A DNA stretch of 64,000 bases. It comes from Naegleria gruberi. Taxonomy: Eukaryota. This document shows positions 14,212 through 52,585 of this stretch, in pieces. The stretch lies in the NCBI GenBank assembly GCA_000004985.1, contig GG738926.1; one strand, 5' to 3'. A program made the translations under genes and the position numbers. The notes beneath the pieces are model-generated. The model ran no database searches and had not been told where the DNA came from. It worked only from the letters and a program-made list of their open reading frames with translations. Positions within the stretch are counted from its first letter, which is position 1. Each line of letters starts with the position of its first letter.

Positions 14212-15768
14212 ATGCTTCTATCAAATGTTGCTGAGTTGGCCAATTCTGTTGGCTCGGATTCGTCCGTTGGTTTATTCGGATATCCAATAATGATTGTTTC
14301 ACTTATTGGAATGTTGGGTTCTTTCTTCTTGTGGTATGCAAGAATGATTTTTGGCAATTTATTGTTTAGATGGATGTTTTATCAATTGAATTTGTCTGAT
14401 ACTTGCATTGAATATGCTTGGTTTAGTTTGTGGTTCTCACACCATCCTTATACCAAAAATGGAAGTACTCATGTTAAACCATTCCAAAAAACAACCAAAC
14501 TTAGAGTTAATAGAACAAATGAACCAAAGGAAGAAGACTCAATTGCCACTTCAAATATTTCAGAAATGATTTCCAATTTGAAAGTCAACTTTGTTCCGAG
14601 TTATGGAATTCACATCTTGTACAGAAATTCTGAACCACTCATAGTTTCCATTTCCATTAATACCAATCAAAATAATAATGCCTACAACACAGAGGAGAAA
14701 ACTCGTGAAGATATTGTCATTTGGAAACCAAGACATTTCCTCACTGATTACCTTATCAAATTTTTATTTCCATGTCAAGATGGAGTGAACAATTGTAATT
14801 CAGTAATTGATATGTTGGAAAAGGCAGGAGTTGCCAAAGAGTTCCTCTCCTTTAATCCAACCTATCCTCAATCTATTGAGAATGCCTACTCTGTATTTCG
14901 TGAATTATTGTGTGACTGTTTCTATGTCCATACTCTCATGACCAGAGAAAAGACCACAATTTACACACCTTATTTCTCCCAATGGGTTTTGGCATCTTTC
15001 AAGGAGAAACGTGCTCAACATACTGTCATTCTCGATGAAGGAGTTTGGGAAGATTTACACAATGACGTTTCCAAATTCTTAAAATCAAAGCAATGGTACA
15101 AAGATAGAGGAATTCCATACAGAAGAGGATATTTACTTTATGGAGAACCTGGATGTGGTAAGACAACGACCATCTCATCAATTGCTGCCTGTTTGAATAT
15201 GAATATTTGTGTATTTACCTTAGATTCTCAAACCAATGACACTTCATTGAATTCCTTATTTTCAACAGTTCCTCCAAATTCAATTCTTGTCTTTGAAGAT
15301 ATTGATTCAATCTTTCCAAAGGAAGAAGATGAGAAAAAGTCAGATTCTGCCACAGATGAAGTTTCACACGGTAGATCAGTTGTCAAGACCAATACCAAAA
15401 GTACATTTTCCACAATTTTGAATTGTTTGGATGGTATTTCATCTCAAGAATCGAGAATTGTCTTTATGACCACCAATTTTAAGGAGAAACTTCCACCTGC
15501 ATTGATTAGAAATGGAAGAATTGATAGAAAGATTTATTTGGGACTTGCCACAAAGCATCAATTCTACAAAATGACTCAAAACTTTTATCCTGAGGAATAT
15601 GTTAAGGAGAAAGTTGACGAAATGTGGGAAAATATGAAAGAATATAGTTTCGGAATGGCCAATTTGCAAGGTTTCTTTTTGAGAAATGAAACTTTGGATG
15701 CAGCTGTCAAATCTTCCAAGAATTTTGAAATGTACATGAAGGAGGAAGAAACTCAAACTCAATTGTAA
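14212..15768 (+). CDS. Mitochondrial chaperone BCS1-like AAA+ ATPase
   Basis: 518 aa. N-terminal TM/BCS1_N region, Walker A YLLYGEPGCGKTT, Walker B ILVFEDIDS, and a second-region-of-homology-like TTNFKEKLPPALIRNGRIDRKIYL. Confidence 0.85.
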   Translation: MLLSNVAELANSVGSDSSVGLFGYPIMIVSLIGMLGSFFLWYARMIFGNLLFRWMFYQLNLSDTCIEYAWFSLWFSHHPYTKNGSTHVKPFQKTTKLRVNRTNEPKEEDSIATSNISEMISNLKVNFVPSYGIHILYRNSEPLIVSISINTNQNNNAYNTEEKTREDIVIWKPRHFLTDYLIKFLFPCQDGVNNCNSVIDMLEKAGVAKEFLSFNPTYPQSIENAYSVFRELLCDCFYVHTLMTREKTTIYTPYFSQWVLASFKEKRAQHTVILDEGVWEDLHNDVSKFLKSKQWYKDRGIPYRRGYLLYGEPGCGKTTTISSIAACLNMNICVFTLDSQTNDTSLNSLFSTVPPNSILVFEDIDSIFPKEEDEKKSDSATDEVSHGRSVVKTNTKSTFSTILNCLDGISSQESRIVFMTTNFKEKLPPALIRNGRIDRKIYLGLATKHQFYKMTQNFYPEEYVKEKVDEMWENMKEYSFGMANLQGFFLRNETLDAAVKSSKNFEMYMKEEETQTQL

Positions 15769-29418: not shown

Positions 29419-31599
29419 ATGTCAGTGTTTCCAGATCTATCGAGCACTTCATTCCCTGCTCTCAAGGAATGCTCTGACTCATTAAAAGTCTGGAATCTTC
29501 AGGAATTGTATGATTTTTCCTCCTCCGAATACAAAACTGCATGGGAATCAAATATTGATCATCATGATAAGCTATCATGTGTTTATCATGATTGCGTCTA
29601 TTTGCAATCATTAAATAATTTTTCTTTTAATCATGCTGATGAGAGGGATGGAAGATTGATTTTAATTAATTTGAAAACAAAAACGAATCGAACAATTCCA
29701 GTGAGAGGGCTTCATTGTACAAAGGTTGATCGGGATGGGAAGGTGATATTGATTAGTTCTGATAGGAAGTCGTTGCAGGTTTTTCATTTGGAAATGAAGA
29801 GTAAAATAGCTGACATTCGGACAGAAAAAGAGTTTCATTTTGCTGATTGGTTGGATAGTGAGAATATTGTGTTTGTGGAGGGAAGTTCATTGTGTAAATT
29901 GAATATTTCACAACAAGATCAGCAGCAGGAAGTTATTATTGAGAATATTCCTGGTGAGTTCAATAAGGATATTACCGGAGTGATTTTTAATATGGAGATG
30001 TGTGCCATTCAAACAGTGAAGAAGGGAGAGTATTCGTTCTATTTGTACAAGTCAGATTTAAAGGTAGGTCAAATAGTGGGACCTAATAATGCATTTGGTG
30101 TTTGCTTGATGGAAGATTCGAAAAAGTTGGTATTGCTTTCTTCAAATGGCTTATTGTTTAAAGACCCTACTGTTGGAAATATAACTGAGCCAGTTTTGTT
30201 TTCAGAGAAGGCATACATGACACACTACTTTAAGGAGTCTCAATTGGTTGCATTTGTTGGGTATAAGGGTGATAGTGGTGTTATTGACCTTTCTTCTAAA
30301 AAACTTATTGCTAGACATGATTTCAAAACAGAAATAGTGAACAGTTTCAAGACGGATGATAGTCTCGTTATAGTTACAAAGGGAGGGAAAGTGATTGAGT
30401 GCTGTTTTAATGCAGAATTCATGTTACATACGTATAGAAACAACTACGATGTGTCAACAGAAATAATGGCTTATTGGAAACGCTTTTCAGAGAGCAATAT
30501 TAAGGATTTTAGACTTTCATCAATTCAATCAATCTTACCATTACAGACTCCTCTGAACAAGTACAATAGAGATTACTATATTCCTCATGGAGGTATTCAT
30601 ATTTTCCATCCGATTATTTCTTACTACTTCCCTTACATGTATCAGTGTGTAATTAGAAACGAACTCTCCATAGAATACACAACTGAGGAGCAAAATATCA
30701 TTAAGGATTTTGTTTCCTACCTGATTTATAGAGGCCAAGATTTGAAAATAGACAGAGACAATTATCTAAAGTGGATGTTCATATTCGATAGATGTTGGTT
30801 TGAATTTACAGAATTGGAATCAAAAATTGTAACTCTTTTCAATAATGATTTTGGTTTGATTTTGCCAGAAATTTCTCCCCTATTGCAGACGTTAACCGAA
30901 TATCAATCCAGAAATTTAAATTTTGAAAATGGTTTGTTACAAAAGTGTATCAACTATTGCAGAGATACCATGGATGGCAAAGAAGTTTCACAAGTAGAAC
31001 CTTTTATTAATGAACACATTCCAATTAGGTTGTCCATCGATTGTATCTACAACCGCCAAGATACTCATGATATCACATTGGTCGCTTATGGAAGGAAAAT
31101 TGGAGCTCATAAAACCGTTCTGGCATCTACAAGTCCAATATTGGAAGTAATGTTGGACGAGGAAGGATCGTTCAAGAGTGAAGTCACAGAAAATCAAGAG
31201 TTGGTGTTAGGTGGAGAAGATCTTGAGATACCAGAGAAAGATAGAGAGAAGAAGGGAGAACTATTCGAGTTACTTGTTAAATTTTGCTATACATCAAGTG
31301 TAGACTGTTCTCCAGAGGATGCATTTCTATTATATGAAATGGCTGATCAGTATCAAATTACTGATCTCAAGACATCTCTTGCAGACAAGATCATTGCACA
31401 ATTGAACCTTGACACATTTATGGAGATAGTCAAATGGAGTGATATTTTTGTACAAATTTCAAACAAACATCTGCACAGAGGAATTCTCAATTTTGCATCC
31501 CTTAATGGAATGAAACTTTTAGAATTATATTCAGATCAATTAGTTGCCTATCCAGAATTCCTTGTTAGATTTCTCAAATTTTCTTTTAATGTTGAATAA
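29419..31599 (+). CDS. BTB/POZ domain protein (726 aa) with N-terminal beta-rich region
   Basis: The C-terminal third contains a BTB fold (HDITLVAYGRKIGAHKTVLASTSPILEVMLDEEGSF...ELFELLVKFCYTSSVDCSPEDAFLLYEMADQYQITDLK) followed by a BACK-like helical tail. The N-terminal 500 aa are unassigned. Confidence 0.7.
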   Translation: MSVFPDLSSTSFPALKECSDSLKVWNLQELYDFSSSEYKTAWESNIDHHDKLSCVYHDCVYLQSLNNFSFNHADERDGRLILINLKTKTNRTIPVRGLHCTKVDRDGKVILISSDRKSLQVFHLEMKSKIADIRTEKEFHFADWLDSENIVFVEGSSLCKLNISQQDQQQEVIIENIPGEFNKDITGVIFNMEMCAIQTVKKGEYSFYLYKSDLKVGQIVGPNNAFGVCLMEDSKKLVLLSSNGLLFKDPTVGNITEPVLFSEKAYMTHYFKESQLVAFVGYKGDSGVIDLSSKKLIARHDFKTEIVNSFKTDDSLVIVTKGGKVIECCFNAEFMLHTYRNNYDVSTEIMAYWKRFSESNIKDFRLSSIQSILPLQTPLNKYNRDYYIPHGGIHIFHPIISYYFPYMYQCVIRNELSIEYTTEEQNIIKDFVSYLIYRGQDLKIDRDNYLKWMFIFDRCWFEFTELESKIVTLFNNDFGLILPEISPLLQTLTEYQSRNLNFENGLLQKCINYCRDTMDGKEVSQVEPFINEHIPIRLSIDCIYNRQDTHDITLVAYGRKIGAHKTVLASTSPILEVMLDEEGSFKSEVTENQELVLGGEDLEIPEKDREKKGELFELLVKFCYTSSVDCSPEDAFLLYEMADQYQITDLKTSLADKIIAQLNLDTFMEIVKWSDIFVQISNKHLHRGILNFASLNGMKLLELYSDQLVAYPEFLVRFLKFSFNVE

Positions 31600-31613: not shown

Positions 31614-33601
31614 TTAAACATTTGGTTGTGCTGTCTTGGCAGCATTATTCTTCTTAGCTTCACATTCTTTTTGATAATTAGTAACAAATTCTTGAACTCT
31701 CTTATCCTTCTTTCTCAATCTGTCCCAAATATCCATCATGTCTTGTTCGCAATGCTTTGCCAGTGCATTAAAAAAGTCCTTAGATAGAGGTTTAGTGACA
31801 TCATCAATAGTCTTTCCAATTTCTTCCTTATTGAATTTAGAAGGTAAGTTTAATTCCATAGGAGCATCAGACTTTAAATATTTGTTTTGAATATTCTTTG
31901 CCAATTTTCTTCTTGCCTTGACATTTGACTTTCTCTTGTACAATTGAATTTCCTTCCAAGCTCTTTAAAGGTTATTAAATCACAATGTTGTTATACTTAC
32001 AAAACACTTTCTGGACAGTATGATTGTTTGGCAAATGCCAACAAGATATCAAACATTTTCTTGTCCCTGAGCATCTTGATTAGTGCTCCCTTTTCCACAG
32101 TAGTTACTCCTTCCTCTTCTTCTACGTCCTTATTCCTCTTTACTGATCCCTTTTGTTTGGAGTAGACAGAGATTAGCTCTGCAATAGCTCTGACAGCTGG
32201 AATGAAACCAGTCACAATATTATCAGTCACAACAGCGAAGAACAAGATGAGCCCGTAAGCAAAATATGCATCCGTTAATGAGCCAACCACTGGTATAAGC
32301 CCAGCTATAATATAGGCAACAATCCAGAGAACCCATAATATCAAAACTGTAAAGGTCTCAACTCTAATACGCCAAGTGTCATTGTCTTCACGAAGAGTGA
32401 AAATCAAAAGGACTAGAATAGCTACCAAGTATGACAAACCTTGAACAGCAACAGTGATCAAAGTACCTGTTCCTGCACCACAACCATGATTGAATACGAA
32501 AAAGTCTGCAGTTACAGTGAATTTAGTGGAATCAGGATAAGAAGAGAGATAGAAGGTTTCTACTAAACCACAAATCAACCAAATGAGCAAATGCAAAAAA
32601 CTAAAGACAATTGTGACTGCTAAATAGAACCACCACTTTAAAACGTGTTGAATTCTAACAATTCTAGTTTCCAATGCAATGTATTTTGCTAATTCTTCTT
32701 GAGTTACAGTTGAAATGGCATTTGCCAATACACTTTTGTGAAGACCACTTGCTTTTGACATTTGTCTTCTGATACCTTGGTTTGGATCGAGAGAGTTTAG
32801 TTTTTCATCAGTAGTGACTCCTCCAGATGAAGTGGAAAGTGAATCATCCATTTCCATAGTGACAGAACCAGCATCTGAATCAGTGTCATCTGAATCCTCA
32901 TCGTAAGAGTCTGTATCCGTCACTGTTGTAGTATTGAAGAGGACTATTCCAGAACCAGTTCCTGGACTATCCTCAACATCTGAAACGTTTCCAGAAGATG
33001 TAGATGGTTGTACTTGTACGGTTTCTCTCTTTCTTCTCGGTTCTCCTCCCTTCTTAATGAGACTCTCTTCGAGACGAAACAATTCAACACGAGTCTTATT
33101 CAAACGAGACATCCAAATCAATCTCCACAATCTCAAAAGTGTTGGGAAGAAGACAACCGGAGCAGCAAAGAAATAGGTCAACATGTAGATGAAACAAGGG
33201 AATATTTTACGACCAACAGTCAAACGTAAGATGAAAATAAAAGCAAATAGACCTGTCAAAAGCAATGCACCAATCATGACAGCAACTTCTCTATATTTTA
33301 CAAGAGGAACTTTCCTAGTTTTGATAACTGAAGCAATTGTGAAAACCACAAATATTAGATAAGTGCCCAGAAGAATACCACTGACAGCTTGACTGCTAAC
33401 AGTCTCTGGACAGAGGCCATATTCTTCCTTTTCTGTTCCATTCTTCAAGAGACTGGGATCACAGACACTTGTAGTATTTGTAGATGTGGAATTTGTGGTT
33501 GTTTGTAGAACACTGAGAATGGATATTAACCCTGTTGATATCCAAGAAGAGGGACCCTCGTTCATTTTGGAGTGATGGTTGTTATTATGGTTTAATCCCA
33601 A
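31614..33601 (-). CDS. Seven-transmembrane receptor with C-terminal RGS domain (7TM-RGS), 2 exons
   Basis: Model: complement join(32001..33565, 31614..31962). The true ATG is at 33565 (MNEGPSSW...); the track start is a TTG. There are seven predicted TM helices with a ~170-aa acidic/S/T-rich loop between TM3 and TM4. The RGS box spans the ~38-nt intron (GTAAGT donor at 32000-31995, AG acceptor at 31964-63): ...KKMFDILLAFAKQSYCPESVL|AWKEIQLYK...RRKLAKNIQNKYLKSDAPMELNLPSKFNKEEIGK...FFNALAKHCEQDMMDIWDRLRKKDKRVQEF. Confidence 0.8.
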
Positions 33602-34950
33602 CGACTATGGTTGTTGTCATAATTGGTATTGGTTCACGAATGAACAGTAACACCCGAATAATTTAGTTGTGAAAATAATTGACAGACAGGCAAGGCAAAA
33701 TAGGTTGATTTCGTTAAGACTTATGGTGTGAAAATCTTCTACTTACAAGTTGATGAACTGCAAACAAGTTAGAGGAGGTGAGTAGTTGAGATTGTCAATA
33801 CAATCGAGTTGATGATTTTTCTTTTGGATTTTCTGCTAGAAGATCGTGAAATGCTTCTCATCGTATGTCCCATCACATAGACAGATATTCTCCATTCTCT
33901 TTATTGTGAAGGACCCAGTGACCAATCATGCAATCATTCGAGTTAGCAAATGCATTATCACTTGTCGCACCACAGGGCATCACCAAAGAAGAATCTACAA
34001 ATTGCTTTGGTTATGCTTTACCATCAAGTCAAAGAGAGAAATGCTAACCAATGAAAGCAACCTTTCGAAGTAGAAATAATCGAGTAGGTGAAGTAATGAG
34101 CAAGTATCTGATTCTTCATCATCGGAAAGAAATGCGCACCTTAAATTACAAGCCTTGACTGGAAGAAGCCTATTCAGGTACCTCCATTAATGGCTCTTCT
34201 TTTCTGGATTCATTATTATTGTAAAGTAAATATCAATTCATTTGTTGTTGTTATTGTAGTAGAGTTGATGTAAGGAAGAAAAAAGTAAATATTGATATTT
34301 TGTTGAGTTGGTTGTTTTCATCATCAAGTAACAGATTTTACAAAGATTGCAAGAAAGGAGATGAAGTGCTCTAGTAGATAACGTTATGATTTGTTTTCTC
34401 ATTTGCCTTCCAAACTAGATAGCTAAGATAAGAGGTTGGTGCAATTCCGATTCCACCACAATAAAAATTCACCACCATATTCACTTCATGATTTGACTCT
34501 GCTTTTTTAATATTTTTTAAGTCTTAACAATTTCTATTTTTCTAACAGAAATTTACAGTTGGCGGCAAAATTCAACAAAAAAATTATTCATATTTAATGA
34601 TAAATTAGATATTTAGATCTTCAAAAATTAGATATTACAGGGTTTACGTAACTACAAGTATTTTGATTGAACAAAGATTTAATACAATCCAATGTTCTCA
34701 TCCAATAACTTGTTGTTACTCCCGAATAGACTCTTGTCGATCTGACTTCATGCAGGCTAAACGAACAAGCCTATCCGAAGAAGGATGAAATTGTGAATAA
34801 GGCCAAAATCGAACGTTGCCAATGAATGGCTCGACGAGGAAACTGTGATAATGCTTTTCCTAATAACCTGATTCGTACATTGACAACTTGTTTCTTGGTG
34901 ATTGTTGACGTCCTCTCCTGCCAGAAAAACACACAAAAAAAACGAGCAAA

Positions 34951-37900
34951 ATGAGATCTCACAACATCATTGGCTGTTTTTTATTTACCCTGCTATTTAT
35001 TATGATTTTTGGCAGCTGGGTTTCCAATGCCGCTGTATCAATAGATGTAAATTATAATATCTACCAATTAGTTGCCTCTTTCTACAATATCAGATCTATG
35101 GACTTTGACAAGCAAAATAATATCCTGTACATTGTCGGCGCTAATAACAAGGTTGTAAAATATACTGCTGCAAGTGGTACGACTGAATATGATGCATCAG
35201 CATATACTCCTTATGGCATTGCTGTCAATTCTACAAGTGCCTATTTTTCAGTATTTAATCCAGCTTCATTAAAAAAGTGGGACGGAGCTGTAGGAACCTC
35301 ATCTTATCATCTCATTATGCCAGGTTCAGTTTCTACATCAGGTTCAGATGATATAGTAGCAAATTCTTCATTGACGACGAAGCCGAAATATATGAGAATA
35401 TCATCAACCACAGGTGATTTATACTTTACGGAAGCATGCAGAGTGAGAAAAATATCAAATGGTATGGTTCGTGCTGTTGCAGGTAAAACTACTTGTACTT
35501 CCTCATCAGGAGATGGTGGTTCAGCCACAAATGCAGAATTTAATGGAGCTCCATATTATATTGCCTTAACACCAGAAGATGATTTACTTGTCATGGATAA
35601 TGTAAATAGACTGAGAAAAGTTAGCAATGGCACAATTACTACAATTCTATCACCTACCTCTTGTAGAGGTCTTGCTGTCGGTACTAATGGAGATATTTAC
35701 ATAATAGGTAAGTAATTGGATAAGAGCAAATTTCAATAATTATTATGTAGATGATCAAGTAGTTAGTAAGGTGAGGAATGGAGTTTCAACCACTATTGCT
35801 GGTGGTGGTGGAACTTCAACGAGCTCTTTTTCCTCAAATGATCCTCTATCATATGGTTTTGCTTATGCAGAACTCAGTGATATTGTCGTTGGTGTGAATA
35901 ATAGTCTTTATTTTGTTGCTGATCAGAAGTTATTCAAATTAGAACCTTATTGCAGTTCAGGTTATGTACTTTCACCTGATTATACTATTTGCTATCCTGT
36001 CTGCTTTAATACAGTAGCAACATCTCAATCAGTGTGCTCTAATTCAAATGGTACCTGTATTGCTCCTGATACATGTTCTTGCAAAGCTGGTTATACTGGT
36101 TCCAAATGTGAAATTCCAATCTGTTACGGATTACTCTCCAATGACACAGCCAATGCTTGCAGTGGAAGAGGATCTTGTGTAGCAAAGGACACTTGTGTCT
36201 GTCAACCAAATTATTCTGGACTTGCTTGTAATATCACTACCTGTTCTTCAATTTCTAGTACCAGTGCAAATGTTTGCTCTAGAAGAGGGTCATGCACTGC
36301 CTATAATACTTGTACTTGTTCGCAAAATTATTATTATGGAACAGATTGTCAAAATACTTACTGTTATTCAATTTCCTCTACTGATTCAAGTGTTTGTAGT
36401 GGACATGGTAACTGCTTAGATTATAATCAATGTTCTTGTTCTTCAAAATGGTATGGTTCCTATTGTAACATCACAGAATGCTTTTCTATGTTAAGTAACT
36501 CTTCAAATGTTTGTTCAGGTGCTGGTACTTGTAATTTGCCAAATAATTGTACTTGTAATGCTGGATATAATGGAACTAATTGTGAAAACTTTGATTGTTT
36601 CGGAGTGTCTGTGAATAGTGGCCAAAGTGCATGTCAACACAATGGAACATGCTCAGGACCTGGAGCTTGCTCTTGCTTGCCAACATACTATGGAAAAATT
36701 TGTGAAATATCAACTTGTTATGGTATATTGAGCAATTACTCTAGTGTTTGTTCAAGTCATGGAACCTGCACAATGTTGAATACTTGTGAATGCAGCCAAA
36801 ATTATTATGGAAATAATTGCAGCTTCCCTATTTGTTATGGAATAACATATGATGATACTAGTGTATGTTCTGCTCGCGGAAAATGTATTGGCGGAAATAA
36901 TTGTAAATGTAATAATGGTTATACTGGAGCTAATTGCGAGCTCAATATTTGTTATGGTGTTAACTCTGACCAATCTAATGTTTGCTCTTCACGTGGTTCA
37001 TGTGGTGCACCTGATTCATGTCAATGTACTAATGGATACAGAGGTCCAAATTGTCAATATGTTGAAATGATAATGGACGCCAAAGCGGCAGTTTTATCTA
37101 CAGCAGTCTCCAACGTAATAGCTTCCTATGCTCCTAAAACAGCAACATCTTGCAGTTCTATTTTCTCCTCAAAGGATTTGACATATCTTGGCTCCTCGGA
37201 AACTGTCAGATGTATTTGGAATCAAAACACATTCAAAATTTATTTAGGCTACAGACACTTTGTTTATGATAATATGACCATGGATATCTTTGGTAATGGC
37301 ATGAATTTCACTTTGCAAGTAGTCTTGACAAAGGCCATACAAGATAGTGCCAGTGCTTCTATTTCCATATTACCTCAACTATCTAAGGTACCAAAAACAG
37401 CAATTATTGTTAAATCTTACTCACCATTTGTTTTCCAAGCTTTTAGAAATACTTCAATTGCTTGGTCTAACTCAGGTAATACCGATATCTCTACATTGCT
37501 TTCAGGAATGAGCAACAAACCAGTGGTAGTCATTCCTTCTACAGAAATAACCTCAGCTTCAACCAAATTTTCCTTAAATGTAACAGGTAAAAACTGGATT
37601 GGTGCCACTTCAACTAGTGCAAAAGTTGATATTGATTATACTGCAGCCTATCCATACTTTGAATTAGTATCGGAGACAAGTGGTAGTCAATTTACTTGTT
37701 CTGGTTTTGACTGTATTATTGAAGTTAATCCGTATGTTACACCAACTCCTACAGTCTATTTTGATGTACCATTCAATGCTCTCAATAGTGGTTCTGGAGA
37801 TTATGTAATTAGATTTTTGAATAGAGTTGGCTCTACCATTCTAAACAGTTACTATGAGGGTTCAATGAAACTTCAAACAACCTCTAGTGCCTTAACCTAT

Positions 37901-40900
37901 ACAATGTCCTACACTGGCTTTGAAGAAGTGCCAATCGTGTTGCTCAATACTGAAAAACAATACTATGGAAACAAACTCACAATTACTGCTTCTTTTATTG
38001 ACCCGATGGTTGAATATTTGTTGAGTAGTAATAGTATTAGTGTTTCATGGTTTTGTTTTAGAGGTACTTCAAAGACTGGTCCTTTTTCTGCCTATGACTG
38101 TACTTCTCAAACTAAGGAATTAATCATTGGAGAATCTAACCTTATTGAAGGATACCATCAATTCCAATTCACAGCCACTTTGACAAATTCAAAAATCACA
38201 TCCGTTACCAAAACAGCAATTGTGCAAGTTGTTAAAACAAATATTCCAGATATTCTCTTTGACTCTGTTCCTCCAGTTTATCCATCATCAAGAAACTTGG
38301 TATTGAATGCAGTTATTTCTTCTTCCACGCAAATCGGTAGCGTTGTGTGGCAAGTAACCAAGGGTAATTTACTCAATGAGAATATTCTTAGTCAATCAAG
38401 TACTCTCTCATTGGATGGATACAATATCAAATCAACTTTGGTTATTGACAAGTCTTATTTATTACAAGGTGATTCTTATACATTCACTGTTACTGCTTCC
38501 AATGGTATTGGCTCTTCAACTGCAGCTGTTTCAACTGTTATTGATGTAGCTCCAAGAATTGCTTGTCAAGCCTATGACGCAGCCATAACCAATTCCGTTA
38601 TCTATGCTTACTCTAGTGATGTGGTAATTGATTGTGCTTCACTCTCTGACTACTCAATTGCTTCCTATCATGTCGATATATATGCCAACTCAACCAGGGT
38701 AATGACAGTATCTAAAACAATGAAAAAGACTTTTATTACAAAGGTACCATACGGTCCAAATGGAAATATCAGACTGGATGTACGAGCTGTAAACAAGATT
38801 GGATCTATTTCATCTGCTTCTATTGATCTCAAGGTTTCTCTTAAAAATACTGATAACACCCTCGCTGGAAGAATTGGATTTGCTAGTTCTGAATATGAAA
38901 GCAACAAAGCAAGCTTTACAAGATTAGAAAGTGTTGTTACTATGCATTCTTTATTGTTACTTATTATTCAACAAAATTCTGTTAGTGAATTTGCCAGTAT
39001 AGACTCTACAGCCAAAACTACTCTCACCACCTTGATAACCAATATGTTAACTACTTTGAGTGGTCTGAAGAGTATTAGTTACAACGCAGATGACAAATTA
39101 GCTCCTGTTTTTATTCCATTTGCAAATGATGCTTACAGGTTACTTGCTGTTATTTCTCCAACTACAGTGGCTTCCAATGCTGATCTACTCACTTGGGTTA
39201 AATTCTTCATAACGTCATTCAATGATTACAAGACATATTATAGATCTACAGTTGTACCTACTATTTACGACTCTAAACACTTGACAGAAATTGATTCCTT
39301 GATAGGTATTGGCGCAAAGTATATTAGTGATAGTAGTTTCAGTCCATTATATAAGGAAACAGCTATTATTTCCAAATTGATTACTGACGTTACCAATTCC
39401 ACAACAACGACAACCTCCACCATCGTGGATTCCAGTGGTACGGAGACAAGATTTGATATTGTTGACAGAATTCAACAACTGAATGCCAAGACAATTACAT
39501 TCGCTAATTATCCTTCAATTTCTATTTCCTTCCCATCAGATTTCTACTCACAACTCGGTGTTGAAAATTCAGGATCAGGAGTAACCCTCACTTCTGCTGT
39601 TTCAACCTCTAAATATTCCCAACTAGTAAGCCCTTCTGTTGATATTTCTCTTTCTACCTCTTCAGACGCTGTTATTTCTGTGAGTGGATTGCAAGGAAAT
39701 TTGATTCAAATCAATTTTGGCACCTTATCACAACCTAAAGCTAACTTTACCAGTTACAATTATACTTGCAGATTCTTGAATACTACCTCATCACAATGGA
39801 GTCAGTCAGGAGTGTCAAGCTCTATTTCCATTTTGTCAGATGATGGCCAAACTGTCACCTTTTCTCTTTCATGTTTAACTTCTCACTTGACTTCTTTCGG
39901 AGTTGTTTCTGCTATCATCCCTCCAACATCACAATCTAAAACAGTAACAACAGATAATACTGGTGTTGTTGTTGGTGCTGTTTTGGGTACACTCTTGCCA
40001 TTGATTTTGATAGCTGTTATTGTTGTCGTAGTGGTGATAATTGTAATTATTTTATACAAGAGAAAGAAATCTCTCGACTCATCACAAGTTCAAAATGTTG
40101 AATTGGTCAATAAGAATGTTTCAAGTGTTCATATTAGTGACTTCCCTTCAGAAGAAAGCACTCACTTTAAGCAATTGGTTAGTGTATCTTCTGGATCTAC
40201 TAATTCTGATCCACTTGCAAGATATGCTGATATGGTAAAGATTGGACAAGGCGCATTCGGAAGTGTGTTCAAAGGTGTTGATACAAAGCAAGCAGGAAAG
40301 TTGAAGGCCATCAAGGTTATTAGATTTAATTCTGTTGGTGAATTGAACAATATGCTCAAAGAAGGAACTATGCTCATGAACATTGATCACCCACATATTC
40401 TAAAAGTCAACGAGTTTATTATTGACAAAGATAACATTCTCTGTATTGACACAGATTTCTGCGAAGATGGTGATTTGACCAAGCTTACTCTTTCTGCAGA
40501 GCCAATCCCAGAACCAATCATCAAACAAGTAATTTATCAAATGTGTTCTGCTTTGGCCTTTATTCACAACAAGCTCAAGATTATTCACAGAGATGTTAAA
40601 CCACACAACATTTTCTTGAAAGAATTGACAGATTTTTCAGTTCAAACAGTTTTGGCTGACTTTGGTCTTGCTAAACAAGATCAAAACAACAGCATGAATT
40701 CATATGCTGGTACACCACTTTGTAAGTTTTTATTTTTAATTATTTAATTAACAACCAATTAAATAGACATGAGTCCAGAACTTGCCCTTGGAGGTAAATA
40801 TAACTATAATACTGACACTTGGTCTCTTGGTGTTGTAGCCTATCAATTAATGACTAAAGATATCACAACTGCTCTAAGTCATTTGTGCTTAACAGGAGAT

Positions 40901-41125
40901 TCAGAAGATACTAAGAAGAGAATTAGAGCCAAATTGGATGAGACTGGTCAATACTCTGAAGCATTGAAAGAGATTGTCATTTCCATGTTAGAAAAAGATG
41001 CTGCATCACGTCCATTTCCTCAAGAATTAGTCGATCGTCCTTTCTTCCAAGATTATAGACCAAAGAAGAAGAAGAATAACATTTTCAGATCCAGTTCTGC
41101 AGGAGAAGATGATATGTATATGTAA
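34951..41125 (+). CDS. Receptor Ser/Thr protein kinase with NHL-repeat + ~12 EGF-like (tenascin/laminin-type) repeat ectodomain, 3 exons (~2028 aa)
   Basis: Model: join(34951..35707, 35751..40721, 40767..41125), with introns GTAAGT...AG of ~43 and ~45 nt. It has a signal peptide and NHL-like repeats. EGF-like units of the form C..G.C...d.C.C..gY.G..C span ~36000-37060. A long S/T-rich stalk precedes the TM helix VVVGAVLGTLLPLILIAVIVVVVVIIVIILY. The kinase domain shows GQGAFGSVFKG / AIK / HRDVKPHNIF / DFGLAK, and GTPLY|MSPE...DTWSLGV is completed across intron 2. Confidence 0.85.
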
Positions 41126-41225
41126 ACTTATTAAACAAATTTTAATGACCTGTTGATTTCAGTAGATGCATAAAAATTATCCAACACTGGATGAAGAGAA
41201 CCCAGTAATTGCCTTCCTTTATGGA

Positions 41226-42650
41226 CTACTCCTCATCAGAGCTAGGCTCATCAGAGAAATACACTTTATCAAATAATTTTAATCCAGCAGGTGTTGAACT
41301 AATCTCTCCAGATATGGAATTCCTTTTAAAATATGTTTCATGATAGGAAGCAATTTTTCTCAATTTAGGAAAAACATCATTAAACAATAAATTCACTTCT
41401 GTTAAATTAGCAACTTCCAAAGTTGTAAAAATCAATTTTTCAATACCGTTAAATTTACCCCTTATATCCCAATCAAAATTATCAATGTTAATAATTTTAA
41501 GTTGATTGGAAAATACAGAATGTGAAATAAGGTTATACGAATCGTCTGAACCACAATTATCAATCATTAAGGTGGTTAGATTAATCATATTTGGACTGTC
41601 AACAATCATTTTTACACCCTCACTCCCAATATCATTGTTACTGATATCCAAATAAGTCAACTTGGTAATATACTTGCTTTCACATAAATATTTACATGCT
41701 TGTTTAGTACACAAGCCATGATAAATGATAAGACTCGATAAATTACTCATATTTGGGCTATTGGCGATGTCAATTATTCCATCTCCAATTCTACACCCTC
41801 CTAAATTCAAATAGGTCAATTGATTTAAATATTTGCTATTAGCAATTTCCTTACATCCTTCTCTCTCAAAACTATTTGAACATAAATTGAGACTAGTGAG
41901 ATTCTTAAAATGTTCATTCCTTGTTATTGGTTCCATATTTTTTATGTAACTTATTTCTAAACATAAGCTTGTCAATTGAGTTAATTGACCAAAATCCAAA
42001 GCTTCATCAACAAAAATATCATTAATTTCCAAATTTGTTAAATTAGTGAAATATTTTCCATAAGCAAGAGCTTTTAAAATTGACTTATTCGCATTGAAAA
42101 GTGATTCCAATTTCAATATCCGTAAATTTTTACAATTTTCACTATTTGCCAAATATTCAATGCCCTCCCTAATTTCTGATTCTCCAAAATCTAAACGTGT
42201 TAAATTTTTCAAATAAGGACTGGTTGCTATTAATTTACAACATTCATCATCAATTTCATTGGCAAACAATATCAGACTCTTCAAATTGCGCATCTCTTCA
42301 CACTGACACAACTCTCTAATACACTCCAATCCAACAAAATCATCGAGACGATAACAATTACTTGCATCCAATTGAGTCAAATTGGAAAGTAATTTGTTTT
42401 TGAACAATAAATTGTTTAATGTACTTCCTCGGGTGAGTTTAATGGAGAGAGGTAGTTTGCAGCACTGATCAAACCATTGTTTGGAAACGAGTGAACAAAT
42501 TGGAATAATTTCCTTCCTATTATGGAGAAATGGTAAAATATTCAGTAGAATATCATCGTATAATGTGGGGGAGGAGTATTCGTGCATTTTCTTACATTTT
42601 GATGGTGGTTGAACACCAGTACCACTTTCAGCACTAAATATTCTTTTCAT
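41226..42650 (-). CDS. F-box / leucine-rich-repeat (RNI-like) protein
   Basis: 474 aa. An N-terminal F-box-like segment (LYDDILLNILPFLHNRKEIIPICSLVSKQWFD) is followed by at least 12 cysteine-containing LRRs (L..L.L..C..I.D.g...L). Confidence 0.8.
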   Translation of the reverse strand: MKRIFSAESGTGVQPPSKCKKMHEYSSPTLYDDILLNILPFLHNRKEIIPICSLVSKQWFDQCCKLPLSIKLTRGSTLNNLLFKNKLLSNLTQLDASNCYRLDDFVGLECIRELCQCEEMRNLKSLILFANEIDDECCKLIATSPYLKNLTRLDFGESEIREGIEYLANSENCKNLRILKLESLFNANKSILKALAYGKYFTNLTNLEINDIFVDEALDFGQLTQLTSLCLEISYIKNMEPITRNEHFKNLTSLNLCSNSFEREGCKEIANSKYLNQLTYLNLGGCRIGDGIIDIANSPNMSNLSSLIIYHGLCTKQACKYLCESKYITKLTYLDISNNDIGSEGVKMIVDSPNMINLTTLMIDNCGSDDSYNLISHSVFSNQLKIINIDNFDWDIRGKFNGIEKLIFTTLEVANLTEVNLLFNDVFPKLRKIASYHETYFKRNSISGEISSTPAGLKLFDKVYFSDEPSSDEE

Positions 42651-43130
42651 TTTTTTATTTCAGATAATTAATTTTTAATGAAATGGATTTGATGAGTTCC
42701 CAATTTGGGGTTCTGAACTTGTTATTCAAACTGATGATACACAAACTACAGAAGAATGCTCTGAGAACAGTCATACGATTGTATTCTAAACTATCATACT
42801 CATTAAATATAACAATGCGAAACTCTGAAACACTGGATTTGCAGAGTTTCTTGAAGATCATTCCATTATTTAAATTGCTGCAGTGCCTGTTGATCTATTG
42901 TTGGGCTCAAAGAAGAATAAACAGTTTCGTTTTGTAGTGTATTTCGAATAAATCTTGTTTTCACAATTTAAACTAATGTTAAAGGACTAACTCTCTCAAC
43001 AACTCTTTCTTATTTGAATTGTCCTTTCTCAAAGTGGATGGGGATCAAGATTAGCATCAGCAACATGTCAAACTTTCGAATAAAAAACACTTCAAAAAAA
43101 TAGCGCAACCACAAGTTCATCTCTGTAGCC

Positions 43131-45116
43131 ATGTCATCCATGTGGCTTTCAAGTGCATCAACCATTGACATTTCTCATCTGGTGGTTTCAACTTCATATC
43201 AACTAAACGAAACCCTTTCGAATAATTCCACAAATTCAACAATATGCCATCCCATTCTCTTTCAATTGGGCAACTTTTCCCGCGAATCCACTCCACAAGA
43301 ACTCTACGGACTTTGCCCCGACGCTCTCACCACTCCAATCTTTAGTTCAATTTTATTATTTCTAATCATTCTCATGTCCATGGCCAGCATTTTAGGAATC
43401 ATTGCCTACAGACACAGTGGACACATCAAAGCCAGAGGTGCAACCACCATTTCCCTCTCAGTTTGTGTCCATCTGGTGTTCGTGTCCATTTTCTTCCTTC
43501 GTCTAATGATCGATCGAAAGACATTTCCGTGTGCAATTTATACATTGCTCTATTTTTTATTACCGGCAGCTGTTACATTACCCATGATATTGAGGTGCAT
43601 TCGTCTCTATTCAATGTACAAATTGAATTTAATCAAGACGAGGATATTTGATGTGGATGGAGTGGATTCGGTGAATGGTGGAGGTGGACGAAAGAAAACT
43701 AATGAAATGGTGAAGAAGGAAGAAATTGTGAGTTCAGTAGTGGAAATTGTGGAAGAATCGAACCATGTGGAAATGAAGAATTTTGAGAATCGTCAACATT
43801 CGGTTCATTTTGAAAAAGTGTTGAGTGAATCGACAATTAATCAAGAAACACCTTCTTCATTGAATACCACCTCAATAACTCATAACAGTTCATCCAATGT
43901 CGATTCTCTAAATAATTCAGGAATAGACGAAACTCTCAAGCAACAGGAAAATAATTTACAAATCTTGTCAGAGGTGAAGGGAACTCAATCGACTTTTGAC
44001 GTGAATGAAAATATTCACACCAATGATGAATCAACAGTGACTGACGATGAGGACATTACCAACACTTTCACATTGAATACTTCACGGTCAACTTGGAATC
44101 TTTCAGACATTAATTCAAAGGAAGTTCAATCACAAGCCAGAAAGCTCAATATTTTGACATTTATTTCATCGTACAAGTTTATGGTAATTTGCTATGCCTG
44201 TTTGCTGATTTTACAATTTTTGCTATGGCTTGGTTTGGGAGGAATTGAGGAGATTATTTTTACAGTTTCTCCTCCTGCAGATAATTCAAGAATTTTCCTA
44301 TTGGAAGGAGGAATGTTACTCTTCTCTCATGGATGCAGTATCAGTACCAAGTTTGTCATTATATTTGGAGTGATTACTGTCATTTACTTTATTATTGAGA
44401 TTGGTGCATTCATTTTGTGTCTGTTTGCTGATAGAGATACTTGGAATATTAAGAAGGAAACTGTCATTTTGCTAATTTTTCAAGTAATATGTCTACTCTT
44501 GTTTGTCATTACGGGAAATATTGACATTATTGTGATATTGACAGATTATTTTATTCCATACGGATATACCTTAATGATCTATTCCTATATTGAAATTCTG
44601 ATTTATTCCCTTATTCCAATAATGAGATCCATGTATGAAAATTACAAAAAGAAACGTCAGGTAAAATTCATGCAACAGGAGGCCTCAGAATTGAGCAAAT
44701 CAACAAGTTCCTACCATTTGAAACCTGTCCCATTGTCAGATGTCGAACGAGTTCTTATGAATAAGAGAACATTTAACATTGTTTTGGATTTTGGAAGAAG
44801 ATCCTATTGTGTGGAATCAGTTCTTGCATGGAGAGACATCCAGAGGTATCAAAAATCGAGAAGACATAGAAAGAAAATTGCCCAACACATTATTAGTACC
44901 TATTTAACAATTGGATCTCCTTTCGAATTGAATATTTCGAATATTGAAAAGAAACGATTGGAATACTCAACTATTATTGAGGAATCTAAGAAATTGGAAA
45001 GTTCTTTATTTGATTCTTTAGAATCACATTGTCTGTCAGATATGACAGATTTATTCGATCGGTTGAGATCATCAAATGCTGAAATTGATACCCTAGTCAA
45101 GTCATTTAAAAACTAA
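43131..45116 (+). CDS. Seven-transmembrane receptor with C-terminal RGS domain (7TM-RGS), paralog of 31614..33601
   Basis: 661 aa, single exon. Same architecture as the other 7TM-RGS gene: 3 TM, a ~170-aa S/T/N-rich loop, 4 TM, then an RGS box (FNIVLDFGRRSYCVESVLAWRDIQRYQ...KKIAQHIISTYLTIGSPFELNISN...LFDRLRSSNAEIDTL). Shared blocks with the paralog include EEYGLCPE/QELYGLCPD and GRKIFPCFIYMLTYFF/DRKTFPCAIYTLLYFL. Confidence 0.8.
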   Translation: MSSMWLSSASTIDISHLVVSTSYQLNETLSNNSTNSTICHPILFQLGNFSRESTPQELYGLCPDALTTPIFSSILLFLIILMSMASILGIIAYRHSGHIKARGATTISLSVCVHLVFVSIFFLRLMIDRKTFPCAIYTLLYFLLPAAVTLPMILRCIRLYSMYKLNLIKTRIFDVDGVDSVNGGGGRKKTNEMVKKEEIVSSVVEIVEESNHVEMKNFENRQHSVHFEKVLSESTINQETPSSLNTTSITHNSSSNVDSLNNSGIDETLKQQENNLQILSEVKGTQSTFDVNENIHTNDESTVTDDEDITNTFTLNTSRSTWNLSDINSKEVQSQARKLNILTFISSYKFMVICYACLLILQFLLWLGLGGIEEIIFTVSPPADNSRIFLLEGGMLLFSHGCSISTKFVIIFGVITVIYFIIEIGAFILCLFADRDTWNIKKETVILLIFQVICLLLFVITGNIDIIVILTDYFIPYGYTLMIYSYIEILIYSLIPIMRSMYENYKKKRQVKFMQQEASELSKSTSSYHLKPVPLSDVERVLMNKRTFNIVLDFGRRSYCVESVLAWRDIQRYQKSRRHRKKIAQHIISTYLTIGSPFELNISNIEKKRLEYSTIIEESKKLESSLFDSLESHCLSDMTDLFDRLRSSNAEIDTLVKSFKN

Positions 45117-50903: not shown

Positions 50904-52585
50904 TTGAAAATGCTCAATACAACACTTCATAAACAGAAAAAGAAGGTGAGCAAGAAATCTCAACCTAAAATTCACCAAATTACCATCTCTAAATATATCA
51001 ATGATAAATATGCTCTAAAATCTGTTGAATTGGGAACTGGTTCCTTTGGGGATGTTTATTTGGGAGAGGAAACAGATCCGATCACTAGAAAGAAGAGAGA
51101 TGTGGCTATTAAGAGAGTGAGATTGGAAAGATATGGTCCTGAACATTTCAAATATTTGGTGGCAGAAATTGAAATTATGGCTGGTTGTCAAAATGAGTTT
51201 GTCATGTCACTTGTTGATAAAATTGAAATTCCAAGAAAGGAACTCTATTTGGTAATGGACTTGTGTGAGGCAAATTTTAAATATTACATGAATAATGCAC
51301 GAAAGAGGAGGCAAGATAAGAGATTGCCTTTACTTTCAGAGAAGGAAATTCAATATTGGATAAAACAAATTAGTAGTGGATTGGGATATTTACATTTGGA
51401 AAAGAAGATTTGCCATCGTGATATTAAACCACATAATTTGCTACTCAAGAAAAAGGGTCACGAAGTTGCTTTTGATTTCTATGCCAAGATTGGAAATTAT
51501 GATGAATATACCATTCTGATTAGTGACTTTGGTCTTTCCAAAGTGTTGGATAGCAATCCAATTGCAGAGACAATTCTTGGAACTCAATGTTATAGATCTC
51601 CACAGCTGGCACTCTTCCAACCATACTCATTCGATGCAGATATATTTGCTTTGGGTGTGGTGCTGTTTGAAATGATTGCTGGTTACTGCTTGTTTGGTGC
51701 TCAAGTTACTAATCCAAAGCCAAAATATGGTGAAATTATTAGTACTTTAACAGAGAATATTGACTGGAGCTTTTTATCTGATGCACTTGATATTTCTCCA
51801 GAGCTGGTAGATCTTCTCTCTGGCATGTTACAATTTGAAGTGGAGAAACGTTTGAATATTGAACAAATTTTGCAACATCCCTTCCTTAATATGGATTTTT
51901 CAGAAAGTGAAGTTACTACTACCAGGTCATTCCATCTGAAACTATACCAACTGTATCATATATTGAAATTCCTCTTACTACCACTACTACAACTGACAAT
52001 GATTCTCCAAACAACTCAACTCAACAACAGCAACAAGTTCCTGTACAAATTATACTACCAACCAGCGAGGAAGAAAAAGAAAAAGAATTGCCAGTTAACG
52101 AACCAATCCAAGTAATACAGTTGGAACGTGATGAGCCAACTCCTACAACCTTTTCAGAATTTGTCTCCTTCTCCTATGAAAGAGTTGGACTGCCCCAAGA
52201 TTATACACGAGTAAGCATTATCAAGGATGAGATTGGTTGTGAACCTGCCCTTGTTAAAACTGAAAAAATTTCCAAGAGCAAACACTCCAAAGTTCTCATT
52301 CTTCTCAGCAGTGACAGCAACAAGGCAATTAATTATTCAATCAAGGTACTAGAGTCGCCAGTCAAACACACACAAACAGGAACAGTTTCTTCTACTGTGG
52401 AATATGAATTGGAGAATATTGAAATGGAAATGATTACTCTAGAGTTTGAATTTACTCATTCTCTCACCAACAGATGGCTTTCTTATTTCACAACTCCAGA
52501 ACAGATTCCATTCACTATTGAAATTTATGTTCAATCGAGAATTCCAGAACATACCTCAACTCTTTCTATTGAATCAATCAATTAA
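50904..52585 (+). CDS. Ser/Thr protein kinase with C-terminal extension (two ORFs joined by a frameshift or undetected short intron near 51900)
   Basis: Kinase ORF 50904..52115 shows LGTGSFGDVYLG / VAIKRV / HRDIKPHNLLL / ISDFGLSK / YRSPQ...DIFALGVVLFEM. The +1 frame opens immediately after a TGA at 51908-51910 and continues to 52585 (T/Q-rich linker, then a ~150-aa globular tail). The kinase frame beyond ~51910 becomes low-complexity L/Y-rich. Confidence 0.7.

What the first reader, a model, noticed from the sequence alone, without database searches (positions are those of the whole stretch)
31614..45116. Divergent pair of paralogous 7TM-RGS receptor genes bracketing a receptor kinase and an F-box/LRR gene
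Two genes (31614..33601 on the - strand, 43131..45116 on the + strand) share an unusual architecture: a glycosylation-rich N-terminus, 3 TM helices, a ~170-aa acidic/S/T-rich intracellular loop, 4 TM helices, and a bona fide RGS box. This fuses a GPCR-like receptor to its own GAP, as in plant AtRGS1, which is uncommon and poorly characterised outside plants. The two are clear paralogs (conserved EEYGLCPE and FPC.IY.L.YF blocks) and face away from each other across ~10 kb. That interval holds the 2028-aa EGF-repeat receptor kinase and an F-box/LRR gene, which may represent a locally duplicated signalling neighbourhood. One copy has a ~38-nt intron inside the RGS box; the other is intronless.
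Basis: partly seen in the sequence, partly recalled or inferred. Interest (0 to 1): 0.6.

Follow-up and report, generated by a model that had tools for sequence, protein, structure and literature searches.

The report
Two Naegleria 7TM-RGS receptor genes
The two genes are real, anciently diverged members of the published Naegleria family of seven-transmembrane receptors fused to a G-protein "off-switch" (RGS) domain; both are already annotated, and their closeness shows no sign of recent duplication or a conserved gene cluster.

Summary
Gene A (33565..31614, minus strand, one 38-nt intron, 637 aa) and gene B (43131..45116, plus strand, 661 aa) both have 3 TM helices, a disordered S/T- and acid-rich loop of about 150-180 aa, 4 more TM helices, and a C-terminal RGS box above Pfam's cut-off. 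They align end to end at 28% identity (E 1e-66).

The window is Naegleria gruberi, not a dictyostelid. Both proteins are already in the public annotation. A large 7TM-RGS family in Naegleria (28 genes in N. fowleri) was published in 2022, with GAP activity shown for other members.

The "locally duplicated signalling neighbourhood" idea is not supported:
- A and B lie on opposite sides of the deepest split of a Naegleria/Willaertia subfamily and were never sisters in 50 bootstraps.
- B has closer paralogs elsewhere in the genome.
- Their orthologs in N. fowleri and N. lovaniensis sit on different contigs.
- None of the neighbouring genes is syntenic.

Verdict: ordinary members of a known kind. 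The long TM3-TM4 loop (second intracellular loop, ICL2) is the only mildly distinctive trait.

The parts
32001..33565 (-). Gene A (NAEGRDRAFT_59935) exon 1: N-terminal ectodomain, TM1-3, long ICL2, TM4-7, and the first part of the RGS box (aa 1-522, the last codon split)
   Evidence: spliced product identical to XP_002669496.1
31963..32000 (-). Gene A intron, 38 nt, GTAAGT...AAAG, phase 2, inside the RGS box
   Evidence: same position and phase in the N. lovaniensis and N. fowleri orthologs
31614..31962 (-). Gene A exon 2: rest of the RGS box, short C-terminal tail and stop codon
32192..33400 (-). Gene A 7TM region (aa 56-458), including the ICL2 loop at about 32648..33094 (aa 158-306)
   Evidence: hydropathy; loop composition; full-length alignment to the modelled paralog B
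31737..32080 (-). Gene A RGS box (aa 496-597; the span includes the intron)
   Evidence: Pfam PF00615 E 2.2e-9, 38.2 bits; phmmer hits to RGS18, RGS2 and RGS4 structures
43131..45116 (+). Gene B, intronless, 661 aa 7TM-RGS protein
43329..43604 (+). Gene B TM1-TM3 (aa 67-158), with the conserved FPC cysteine at the top of TM3
   Evidence: AF2 helices 67-92, 104-127 and 134-181; Cys present in 25/25 sequences that cover the column
43638..44135 (+). Gene B ICL2: disordered loop rich in S/T/N and acidic residues (aa 170-335)
   Evidence: pLDDT below 50 over 177-327; composition; loop present in all 28 relatives, 81-323 aa
44172..44630 (+). Gene B TM4-TM7 (aa 348-500), with the invariant ECL2 G-C motif, the DxDTW motif in ICL3 and the TM7 Pro
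44742..45047 (+). Gene B RGS box (aa 538-639)
   Evidence: Pfam PF00615 E 2.1e-5, 25.3 bits against cut-off 23.9; Foldseek RGS16/RGS1/RGS4 with target-normalised TM-score 0.67-0.75
34951..41125 (+). Neighbour, not part of the system: 2028-aa receptor kinase with an NHL region, teneurin-like EGF repeats, a GPS-like motif, one TM and a kinase domain. Introns at 35708..35750 and 40722..40766.
   Evidence: no ortholog next to the A or B orthologs
41226..42650 (-). Neighbour, not part of the system: 474-aa LRR protein with a sub-threshold F-box-like N-terminus
   Evidence: no synteny

Best explanation
A and B are two anciently diverged members of the seven-transmembrane RGS (receptor-GAP) family that is expanded in Naegleria and Willaertia.

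Each protein is predicted to sit in the membrane with a short, glycosylated, cysteine-containing N-terminus outside. A GPCR-fold seven-helix bundle follows, and a C-terminal RGS box lies in the cytoplasm.

The RGS box most likely binds the GTP or transition-state form of one or more of the many Naegleria G-alpha subunits and speeds up GTP hydrolysis. [quoted passage not shown] An extracellular cue acting on the bundle, or phosphorylation of the long loop between TM3 and TM4, would then change GAP access or remove the protein from the surface, as in plant AtRGS1.

Shown here: the architecture, the two folds, conservation of the G-alpha contact residues, family membership and the phylogeny.
Inferred: GAP activity, topology, ligand control, and any role for the loop.

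The position of the two genes 9.5 kb apart is either a relic of a very old tandem duplication or chance. It is not a recent duplication and not a conserved functional cluster.
For: Domain and fold:
- The RGS Pfam hit is above the gathering cut-off in both proteins.
- The RGS region of A matches solved RGS18, RGS2 and RGS4 by sequence.
- The AF2 model of B has pLDDT 80-90 in the TM helices and about 80 in the RGS domain.
- The RGS part superposes on RGS16, RGS1 and RGS4, with target-normalised TM-score 0.67-0.75 and probability 0.99-1.0.

Conservation across 28 relatives:
- The residues aligned with RGS4 E87, N128 and R167 are invariant. D163 is kept in 27 of 28.
- The TM3 Cys is present in 25/25 sequences that cover the column, and the ECL2 Cys in 28/28. 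This is where GPCRs carry their conserved disulfide.

Topology: K/R distribution and the N-terminal sequons fit an N-out, C-in orientation.

Family:
- Orthologs and paralogs carry the same layout in N. gruberi, N. lovaniensis, N. fowleri and Willaertia magna. There are 129 cluster representatives at E <= 1e-30.
- N. fowleri has 28 7TM RGS proteins. The RGS domains of three other members act as GAPs on Nf G-alpha subunits through the canonical interface (PMC9283941).

Age and linkage: tree; different contigs; no synteny.
Against: - No biochemical data exist for these two proteins or for their subfamily. The tested N. fowleri proteins are much larger (1215-2459 aa), several with EGF, lectin or GPS ectodomains.
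- B's RGS score is only just above the cut-off (25.3 against 23.9 bits).
- The position matching RGS4 N88 is Ser in A and B, and S164 is replaced by a hydrophobic residue. G-alpha specificity or GAP potency could therefore differ.
- The 7TM part has no significant sequence match to any Pfam 7TM family or any solved GPCR. The GPCR fold rests on a medium-confidence model built from 16 sequences.
- The Foldseek E-values for the RGS matches were about 0.3-2.
- No ligand, localisation or expression evidence is available.
Confidence: 0.8

Rival explanations
1. One reading: the interval is a locally duplicated, functionally coupled signalling neighbourhood. The two 7TM-RGS genes, the receptor kinase and the F-box/LRR gene would arise and act together, for example with the kinase phosphorylating the RGS receptors as plant receptor-like kinases do with AtRGS1.
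For: - The two same-subfamily genes lie 9.5 kb apart. With at least 9 subfamily genes in a genome of about 41 Mb (genome size from my own knowledge of the N. gruberi genome paper), about 0.02 such pairs are expected by chance. With about 25 genes the expectation is about 0.2.
- Other paralogs also share scaffolds: three on the 939-kb scaffold and two on the 233-kb scaffold.
- Plant receptor-like kinases phosphorylate AtRGS1 (PMC8584482).
Against: - A and B are the most distant pair in the subfamily. A and B were sisters in 0/50 bootstraps and the A clade had 50/50 support. Willaertia sequences fall on both sides of the split.
- The orthologs are on different contigs in two other species.
- The kinase, LRR, BTB and downstream ORFs have no tblastn match near any ortholog.
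- Only the two RGS genes are duplicated. Nothing else in the interval is.
Confidence: 0.07
2. The RGS boxes are not GAPs. They would be G-alpha-binding anchors or effector-type modules (as in GRK or RhoGEF RGS-homology domains), or they may have lost G-alpha binding altogether.
For: - B scores only 25.3 bits against PF00615.
- The positions matching RGS4 N88 and S164 are substituted across the family.
- A also has a faint RGS-like PF09128 hit (E 0.055).
Against: - The key catalytic-site contact, the residue matching RGS4 N128, is invariant in 28/28 relatives, as are the E87 and R167 equivalents. D163 is kept in 27/28.
- The best structural matches are canonical R4-type RGS domains from G-alpha complexes.
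- In N. fowleri even the RGS-RhoGEF uses the canonical interface and acts as a GAP.
Confidence: 0.1
3. The seven helices are only a membrane anchor that places a constitutive GAP at the membrane. There would be no ligand sensing, and the GPCR-like fold would be a structural relic.
For: - The ectodomain is short (about 55-65 aa) and has no recognisable ligand-binding domain.
- There is no sequence similarity to any receptor family.
- De Mendoza 2014 notes that RGS is fused to TM segments in most lineages.
Against: Extracellular and intramembrane positions are strongly conserved across 28 divergent relatives. These include two N-terminal Cys, the TM3 and ECL2 Cys, the ECL2 G-C motif, the ECL3 LTD motif, the TM4 W..G..E motif and the TM7 Pro. 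This is more than a passive anchor would need.
Confidence: 0.15

Closest known systems
Naegleria fowleri 7TM RGS protein family (Bosch, Jeck and Siderovski, J Biol Chem 2022, PMC9283941)
   Same: - Same genus and same architecture: seven TM helices followed by a C-terminal RGS box.
- N. fowleri orthologs of both A (52% identity) and B (42% identity) exist.
- The canonical G-alpha contact residues are conserved.
   Different: - The four members studied biochemically are 1215-2459 aa. The paper describes EGF, lectin or GPS ectodomains for several of them.
- A and B are about 640-660 aa with an ectodomain of about 60 aa, no GPS or EGF, and a long disordered loop between TM3 and TM4.
- No member of this short subfamily has been assayed.
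- I could not confirm that the authors' 28 genes include these orthologs.
Arabidopsis AtRGS1 (plant 7TM-RGS)
   Same: [quoted passage not shown]
- In AtRGS1, regulation works through phosphorylation and endocytosis.
   Different: - To my knowledge AtRGS1 has no long insert between TM3 and TM4, and its regulatory phosphosites lie C-terminal to the RGS box. Here the tail after the RGS box is short and the S/T-rich segment is ICL2.
- Sequence homology between the two 7TM parts was not tested, because the AtRGS1 sequence could not be fetched with these tools.
- The fusion may have arisen independently.
Class C GPCR transmembrane domains (GPR158, GPR156, TAS1R2, mGlu2, GABA-B2)
   Same: - There is a cysteine at the top of TM3 and another in ECL2.
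   Different: - No significant sequence similarity. Pfam 7tm_3 appears at E 1.6 in 1 of 10 members, and there are no PDB profile hits.
- There is no Venus-flytrap or cysteine-rich ectodomain.
- The RGS box is fused in cis. GPR158, by contrast, recruits RGS7 in trans.

Membership tests
7TM-RGS receptor-GAP architecture (AtRGS1 type; Naegleria 7TM RGS family) | Seven transmembrane helices forming a GPCR-like bundle | tested here: met
   - Hydropathy gives 3+4 segments in A and B.
- The AF2 model of B has seven TM helices at pLDDT 80-90.
- A was not modelled, but it aligns with B over its full length.
7TM-RGS receptor-GAP architecture (AtRGS1 type; Naegleria 7TM RGS family) | C-terminal RGS box recognised by the RGS profile | tested here: met
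   - PF00615: A 38.2 bits, B 25.3 bits, cut-off 23.9.
- phmmer against RGS18, E 2.3e-4.
- Foldseek RGS fold, target-normalised TM-score up to 0.75.
7TM-RGS receptor-GAP architecture (AtRGS1 type; Naegleria 7TM RGS family) | N-terminus outside and RGS box in the cytoplasm | tested here: inconclusive
   K/R counts per loop and 3-5 N-terminal sequons fit an N-out, C-in topology. This is a rule-of-thumb inference. No dedicated topology predictor or experiment was available.
7TM-RGS receptor-GAP architecture (AtRGS1 type; Naegleria 7TM RGS family) | Conserved G-alpha contact residues (RGS4 E87, N128, D163, R167; RGS4 numbering from my own knowledge) | tested here: met
   The E, N and R equivalents are invariant in 28/28 relatives, and the D equivalent is kept in 27/28 (alignment to RGS18 and RGS2). 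The N88 equivalent is Ser and the S164 equivalent is hydrophobic.
7TM-RGS receptor-GAP architecture (AtRGS1 type; Naegleria 7TM RGS family) | GTPase-accelerating activity on a G-alpha subunit | not testable with these tools
   Shown only for three other N. fowleri 7TM RGS proteins (PMC9283941).
7TM-RGS receptor-GAP architecture (AtRGS1 type; Naegleria 7TM RGS family) | Sequence homology of the 7TM part to AtRGS1 | not tested
   The AtRGS1 sequence could not be obtained with the tools, and the afdb50 fold library was unavailable.
Adhesion-type Naegleria 7TM RGS proteins (Nf 7TM RGS1-4) | Large ectodomain with EGF or lectin domains and a GPS motif | tested here: not met
   Pfam finds only the RGS domain in A and B, and the N-terminus is about 55-65 aa. 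The tested Nf proteins are 1215-2459 aa.
Class C GPCRs (Pfam 7tm_3) | Significant match to the 7tm_3 profile, plus a Venus-flytrap or cysteine-rich ectodomain | tested here: not met
   - 7tm_3 appears at E 1.6 in 1 of 10 members.
- A profile search of PDB sequences gave no GPCR hit.
- There is no large ectodomain.
- Only the fold is similar.
Recent tandem or local gene duplicates | The two copies are each other's closest paralogs | tested here: not met
   NJ trees place A and B on either side of the deepest split. They were sisters in 0/50 bootstraps. B is 37-45% identical to other N. gruberi paralogs and 28% to A.
Conserved gene cluster | The same neighbours are found in related genomes | tested here: not met
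   - The A and B orthologs lie on different contigs in N. lovaniensis and N. fowleri.
- The window's neighbouring ORFs have no match in those loci, apart from one kinase ORF at 50904..52112.

The most novel reading that the evidence does not exclude
The short-ectodomain proteins with a long ICL2 form a distinct subclass of receptor-GAPs specific to vahlkampfiid amoebae and not yet described. Their GPCR-fold bundle resembles class C at the fold level. It is split by a disordered, S/T-rich and acidic loop of 81-323 aa at the position (ICL2) that normally contacts the G protein. That loop would act as the phospho-switch controlling GAP access or endocytosis, the role played by the C-terminal phosphosite cluster in AtRGS1. 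The A-B linkage in N. gruberi would be the last trace of the founding tandem duplication.
Probability: 0.2. Interest if true: 0.4.

Novelty: new member of a known kind. Interest (0 to 1): 0.2.

Why it matters
7TM-RGS proteins are central to the question of how G-protein signalling worked before ligand-activated exchange by GPCRs became the rule. Naegleria is the one biochemically characterised lineage where self-activating and conventional G-alpha subunits coexist (PMC9283941).

These two genes add no new principle. They are annotated members of a published family.

What this work adds is modest:
- A defined subfamily in Naegleria and Willaertia with a short ectodomain, a long ICL2 and strictly conserved G-alpha contact residues. 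No member of it has been assayed.
- A fold-level resemblance of its bundle to class C GPCRs.
- A clear negative result on the proposed signalling gene cluster.

Tried and rejected
- Bradford et al. 2013 (Sci Signal) could not be read because it is not held.
- The afdb50 fold library was not available, so AtRGS1 and other predicted 7TM-RGS structures could not be compared.
The full-length alignment was used instead, so RGS-only hits inflate the count of 1530.
- The look-up of encoding contigs has no record of the N. gruberi proteins P0011, P0013 and P0007. Distances between the other N. gruberi paralogs on shared scaffolds could therefore not be measured.

Ideas tested and rejected:
- The receptor kinase is not the ortholog of the large gene lying divergently upstream of the A orthologs in N. 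fowleri and N. lovaniensis. tblastn gave no hit there.
- There is no third paralog in the window.
- The 7TM part has no sequence-level link to known GPCR families in Pfam or PDB.
- The dictyostelid origin is rejected.

Not attempted: a model of gene A, and maximum-likelihood phylogeny (only NJ with 50 bootstraps was run).

Full report
**What is in the sequence**

The window has about 33% G+C and is densely packed with genes that carry very short introns.

Gene A is on the minus strand.
- The mechanical ORF opens with a TTG at 33601, but the first in-frame ATG is at 33565.
- The ORF ending near 31997 and the one starting at 31943 are joined by a 38-nt GTAAGT...AAAG intron at 32000..31963. The intron is phase 2 and splits the Leu codon of ESVL|AW.
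- The spliced product is 637 aa. It is identical to XP_002669496.1 (NAEGRDRAFT_59935, UniProt D2W2I5, 'RGS domain-containing protein') of Naegleria gruberi.

Gene B (43131..45116, plus strand, 661 aa, intronless) is identical to another N. gruberi 'predicted protein' on the same 174,974-bp scaffold.

The window is therefore heterolobosean.

**Check of the observation**

- A and B align over their full lengths at 28% identity, E 1e-66. The match includes the TM segments and the RGS box, not only low-complexity sequence.
- Both pass Pfam's gathering cut-off of 23.9 bits for RGS (PF00615). A scores 38.2 bits and B a marginal 25.3 bits.
- Hydropathy gives three hydrophobic segments, a long hydrophilic stretch, then four more segments in each protein.
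- The N-termini carry 3 sequons (A) and 5 sequons (B). The loops are about 25% S/T and 17% D/E with a net negative charge. The K/R distribution fits an N-out, C-in topology.
- tblastn finds no third copy in the window.
- Between the two genes lies a 2028-aa receptor kinase (34951..41125, introns of 43 and 45 nt). It has teneurin-like EGF repeats and a Pkinase domain at E 1e-49.
- Next to it is a 474-aa LRR protein (41226..42650, minus strand). Its F-box-like hit is below the cut-off, 18.8 against 24.3 bits.
- Overall the description is accurate, apart from the 5' end of A and the over-confident 'F-box' label.

**What the proteins are**

An AlphaFold2 model of B was built from a 16-sequence family alignment. 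It has pLDDT 80-90 across seven TM helices and about 80 in the RGS region. Residues 177-327 are disordered.

- Foldseek superposes the C-terminal domain on RGS16, RGS1, RGS8 and RGS4, several of them taken from G-alpha complexes. Target-normalised TM-scores are 0.67-0.75 and probabilities 0.99-1.0, although E-values are only about 0.3-2.
- At the sequence level the 7TM part matches nothing. No Pfam 7TM family reaches significance (7tm_3 at E 1.6 in one of ten members). A family profile finds no GPCR among PDB sequences.

Conservation across 28 relatives (RGS4 numbering is from my own knowledge, and the alignment to RGS18 and RGS2 is):
- The residues matching RGS4 E87, N128 and R167 are invariant. 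D163 is kept in 27 of 28.
- The N88 equivalent is usually Ser. The S164 equivalent is hydrophobic.
- A Cys at the extracellular end of TM3 (FPC) is present in every sequence that covers the column. A Cys in ECL2 (G-C) is invariant. These are the positions of the canonical GPCR disulfide.
- Two N-terminal Cys, the TM4 W..G..E motif, DxDTW in ICL3, LTD in ECL3 and a TM7 Pro are also conserved.

**Family context**

Word-indexed and exhaustive profile searches recover orthologs of A in N. lovaniensis (54% identity) and N. fowleri (52%). Orthologs of B are found in the same species at 44% and 42%.

At least seven more N. gruberi paralogs turn up (P0011, P0012, P0013, P0015, P0020, P0024, P0057), along with many N. 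lovaniensis members and two clusters from Willaertia magna. In all there are 129 cluster representatives at E <= 1e-30.

Every named relative is from Naegleria or Willaertia. All sequences inspected share the short Cys-containing N-terminus, the 3+4 TM layout, and an ICL2 of 81-323 aa that is rich in S/T and acidic residues.

The literature already covers this kind of protein.
- Bosch, Jeck and Siderovski (2022, PMC9283941) reported 28 7TM RGS proteins in N. fowleri. They showed that the RGS domains of three of them accelerate GTP hydrolysis on Nf G-alpha subunits through the canonical interface.
- De Mendoza et al. (2014, PMC3971589) found 7TM-RGS architectures in many lineages.
- The members tested biochemically are much larger (1215-2459 aa), several with adhesion-type ectodomains. 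The short subfamily seen here has not been assayed.

**The 'duplicated neighbourhood' idea**

- NJ trees on trimmed alignments put A and its orthologs in a clade with 50/50 bootstrap support. That clade is separate from a large clade holding B, its orthologs and the other N. gruberi paralogs.
- A and B were never sisters (0/50). Willaertia sequences fall on both sides, so the split predates the Naegleria-Willaertia divergence.
- B is 37-45% identical to other N. gruberi paralogs and 28% to A.
- In N. lovaniensis and N. fowleri the A and B orthologs are on different contigs with unrelated neighbours.
- The window's kinase, LRR, BTB and downstream ORFs have no tblastn match in those loci.
- The only cross-species hit is a kinase ORF at 50904..52112. 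It is 41.5% identical to a kinase 5 kb from the N. fowleri A ortholog.
- The intron in A's RGS box is conserved in position and phase in both orthologs, at roughly 100-130 nt there. It is therefore an old feature of the A lineage.

Chance expectation for two subfamily genes within about 12 kb, taking a genome of about 41 Mb (my own knowledge): about 0.02 pairs with 9 genes, and about 0.2 with about 25 genes. Other paralogs also share scaffolds. An ancient tandem origin is possible, but a recent or functional cluster is not supported.

**Most likely mechanism**

Each protein is a plasma-membrane receptor-GAP. The cytoplasmic RGS box binds activated G-alpha and speeds up GTP hydrolysis, and the GPCR-fold bundle and the long ICL2 provide regulation. 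Fold, architecture and residue conservation are shown here. GAP activity, topology, ligand control and a phospho-switch role for the loop are inferred from AtRGS1 and from the N. fowleri proteins that were tested.

Three rivals remain and are ranked low:
- a non-catalytic RGS module;
- a passive membrane anchor;
- a functional gene cluster.

**Verdict**

The thing itself is an ordinary pair of already annotated members of a published, lineage-expanded family, and the proposed local duplication or cluster is not supported. The only mildly distinctive points are the long insert at ICL2 that defines the subfamily and the class-C-like fold of a bundle with no detectable sequence relatives.

Noticed in passing
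window 34951..41125 (+): The receptor kinase combines several unusual parts:
- a teneurin-type NHL region (30.9 bits, above its cut-off);
- many teneurin-like EGF repeats;
- a long S/T-rich stretch;
- just before the single TM, a full-length but sub-threshold GPS autoproteolysis motif ('SCLTSHLTSFGVVS'; PF01825 E 0.008, 17.1 against 22.5 bits);
- a cytoplasmic kinase domain.
A GPS-like motif on a single-pass kinase receptor is unusual.
   Followed up: partly
window 50904..52112 (+) and L002 17193..18269: This kinase ORF is the only window ORF, apart from A and B, with a match near an ortholog locus. It is 41.5% identical to a kinase 5 kb downstream of the N. fowleri A ortholog. This could be loose synteny or just a paralog.
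   Followed up: no
N. gruberi scaffolds of 938,756 bp, 233,110 bp and 174,974 bp (not in the window): Subfamily paralogs co-occur on scaffolds: P0011, P0013 and P0015 on one, P0012 and P0020 on another, and A and B on the window's scaffold. This hints that the family spread by local duplication.
   Followed up: partly
window 31963..32000, 35708..35750, 40722..40766: All three introns reconstructed here are very short (38, 43 and 45 nt) and start with GTAAGT. The orthologous intron in A is roughly 100-130 nt in N. fowleri and N. lovaniensis.
   Followed up: partly
L004 9781..10189 (N. fowleri): The annotated N. fowleri B ortholog (P0009, 627 aa) lacks the N-terminus and TM1. tblastn with B matches sequence upstream of the annotated start, so that public model is probably truncated at the 5' end. 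P0013 and P0015 of N. gruberi look truncated in the same way.
   Followed up: no
window 41226..42650 (-), 29419..31599 (+): The genes flanking A and B are an LRR protein with a weak F-box-like N-terminus and a BTB-domain protein. Both are possible substrate adaptors of cullin ubiquitin ligases. Neither is syntenic with the RGS orthologs in other species.
   Followed up: partly
window 845..3160 (-), 14212..15768 (+), 18393..21029 (-), 62564..63919 (+): Other identifiable genes in the window are glutaminyl-tRNA synthetase, a BCS1-like AAA ATPase, a formin (FH3 and FH2 domains), and a fragment resembling pyruvate carboxylase. They are ordinary genes unrelated to the finding.
   Followed up: no
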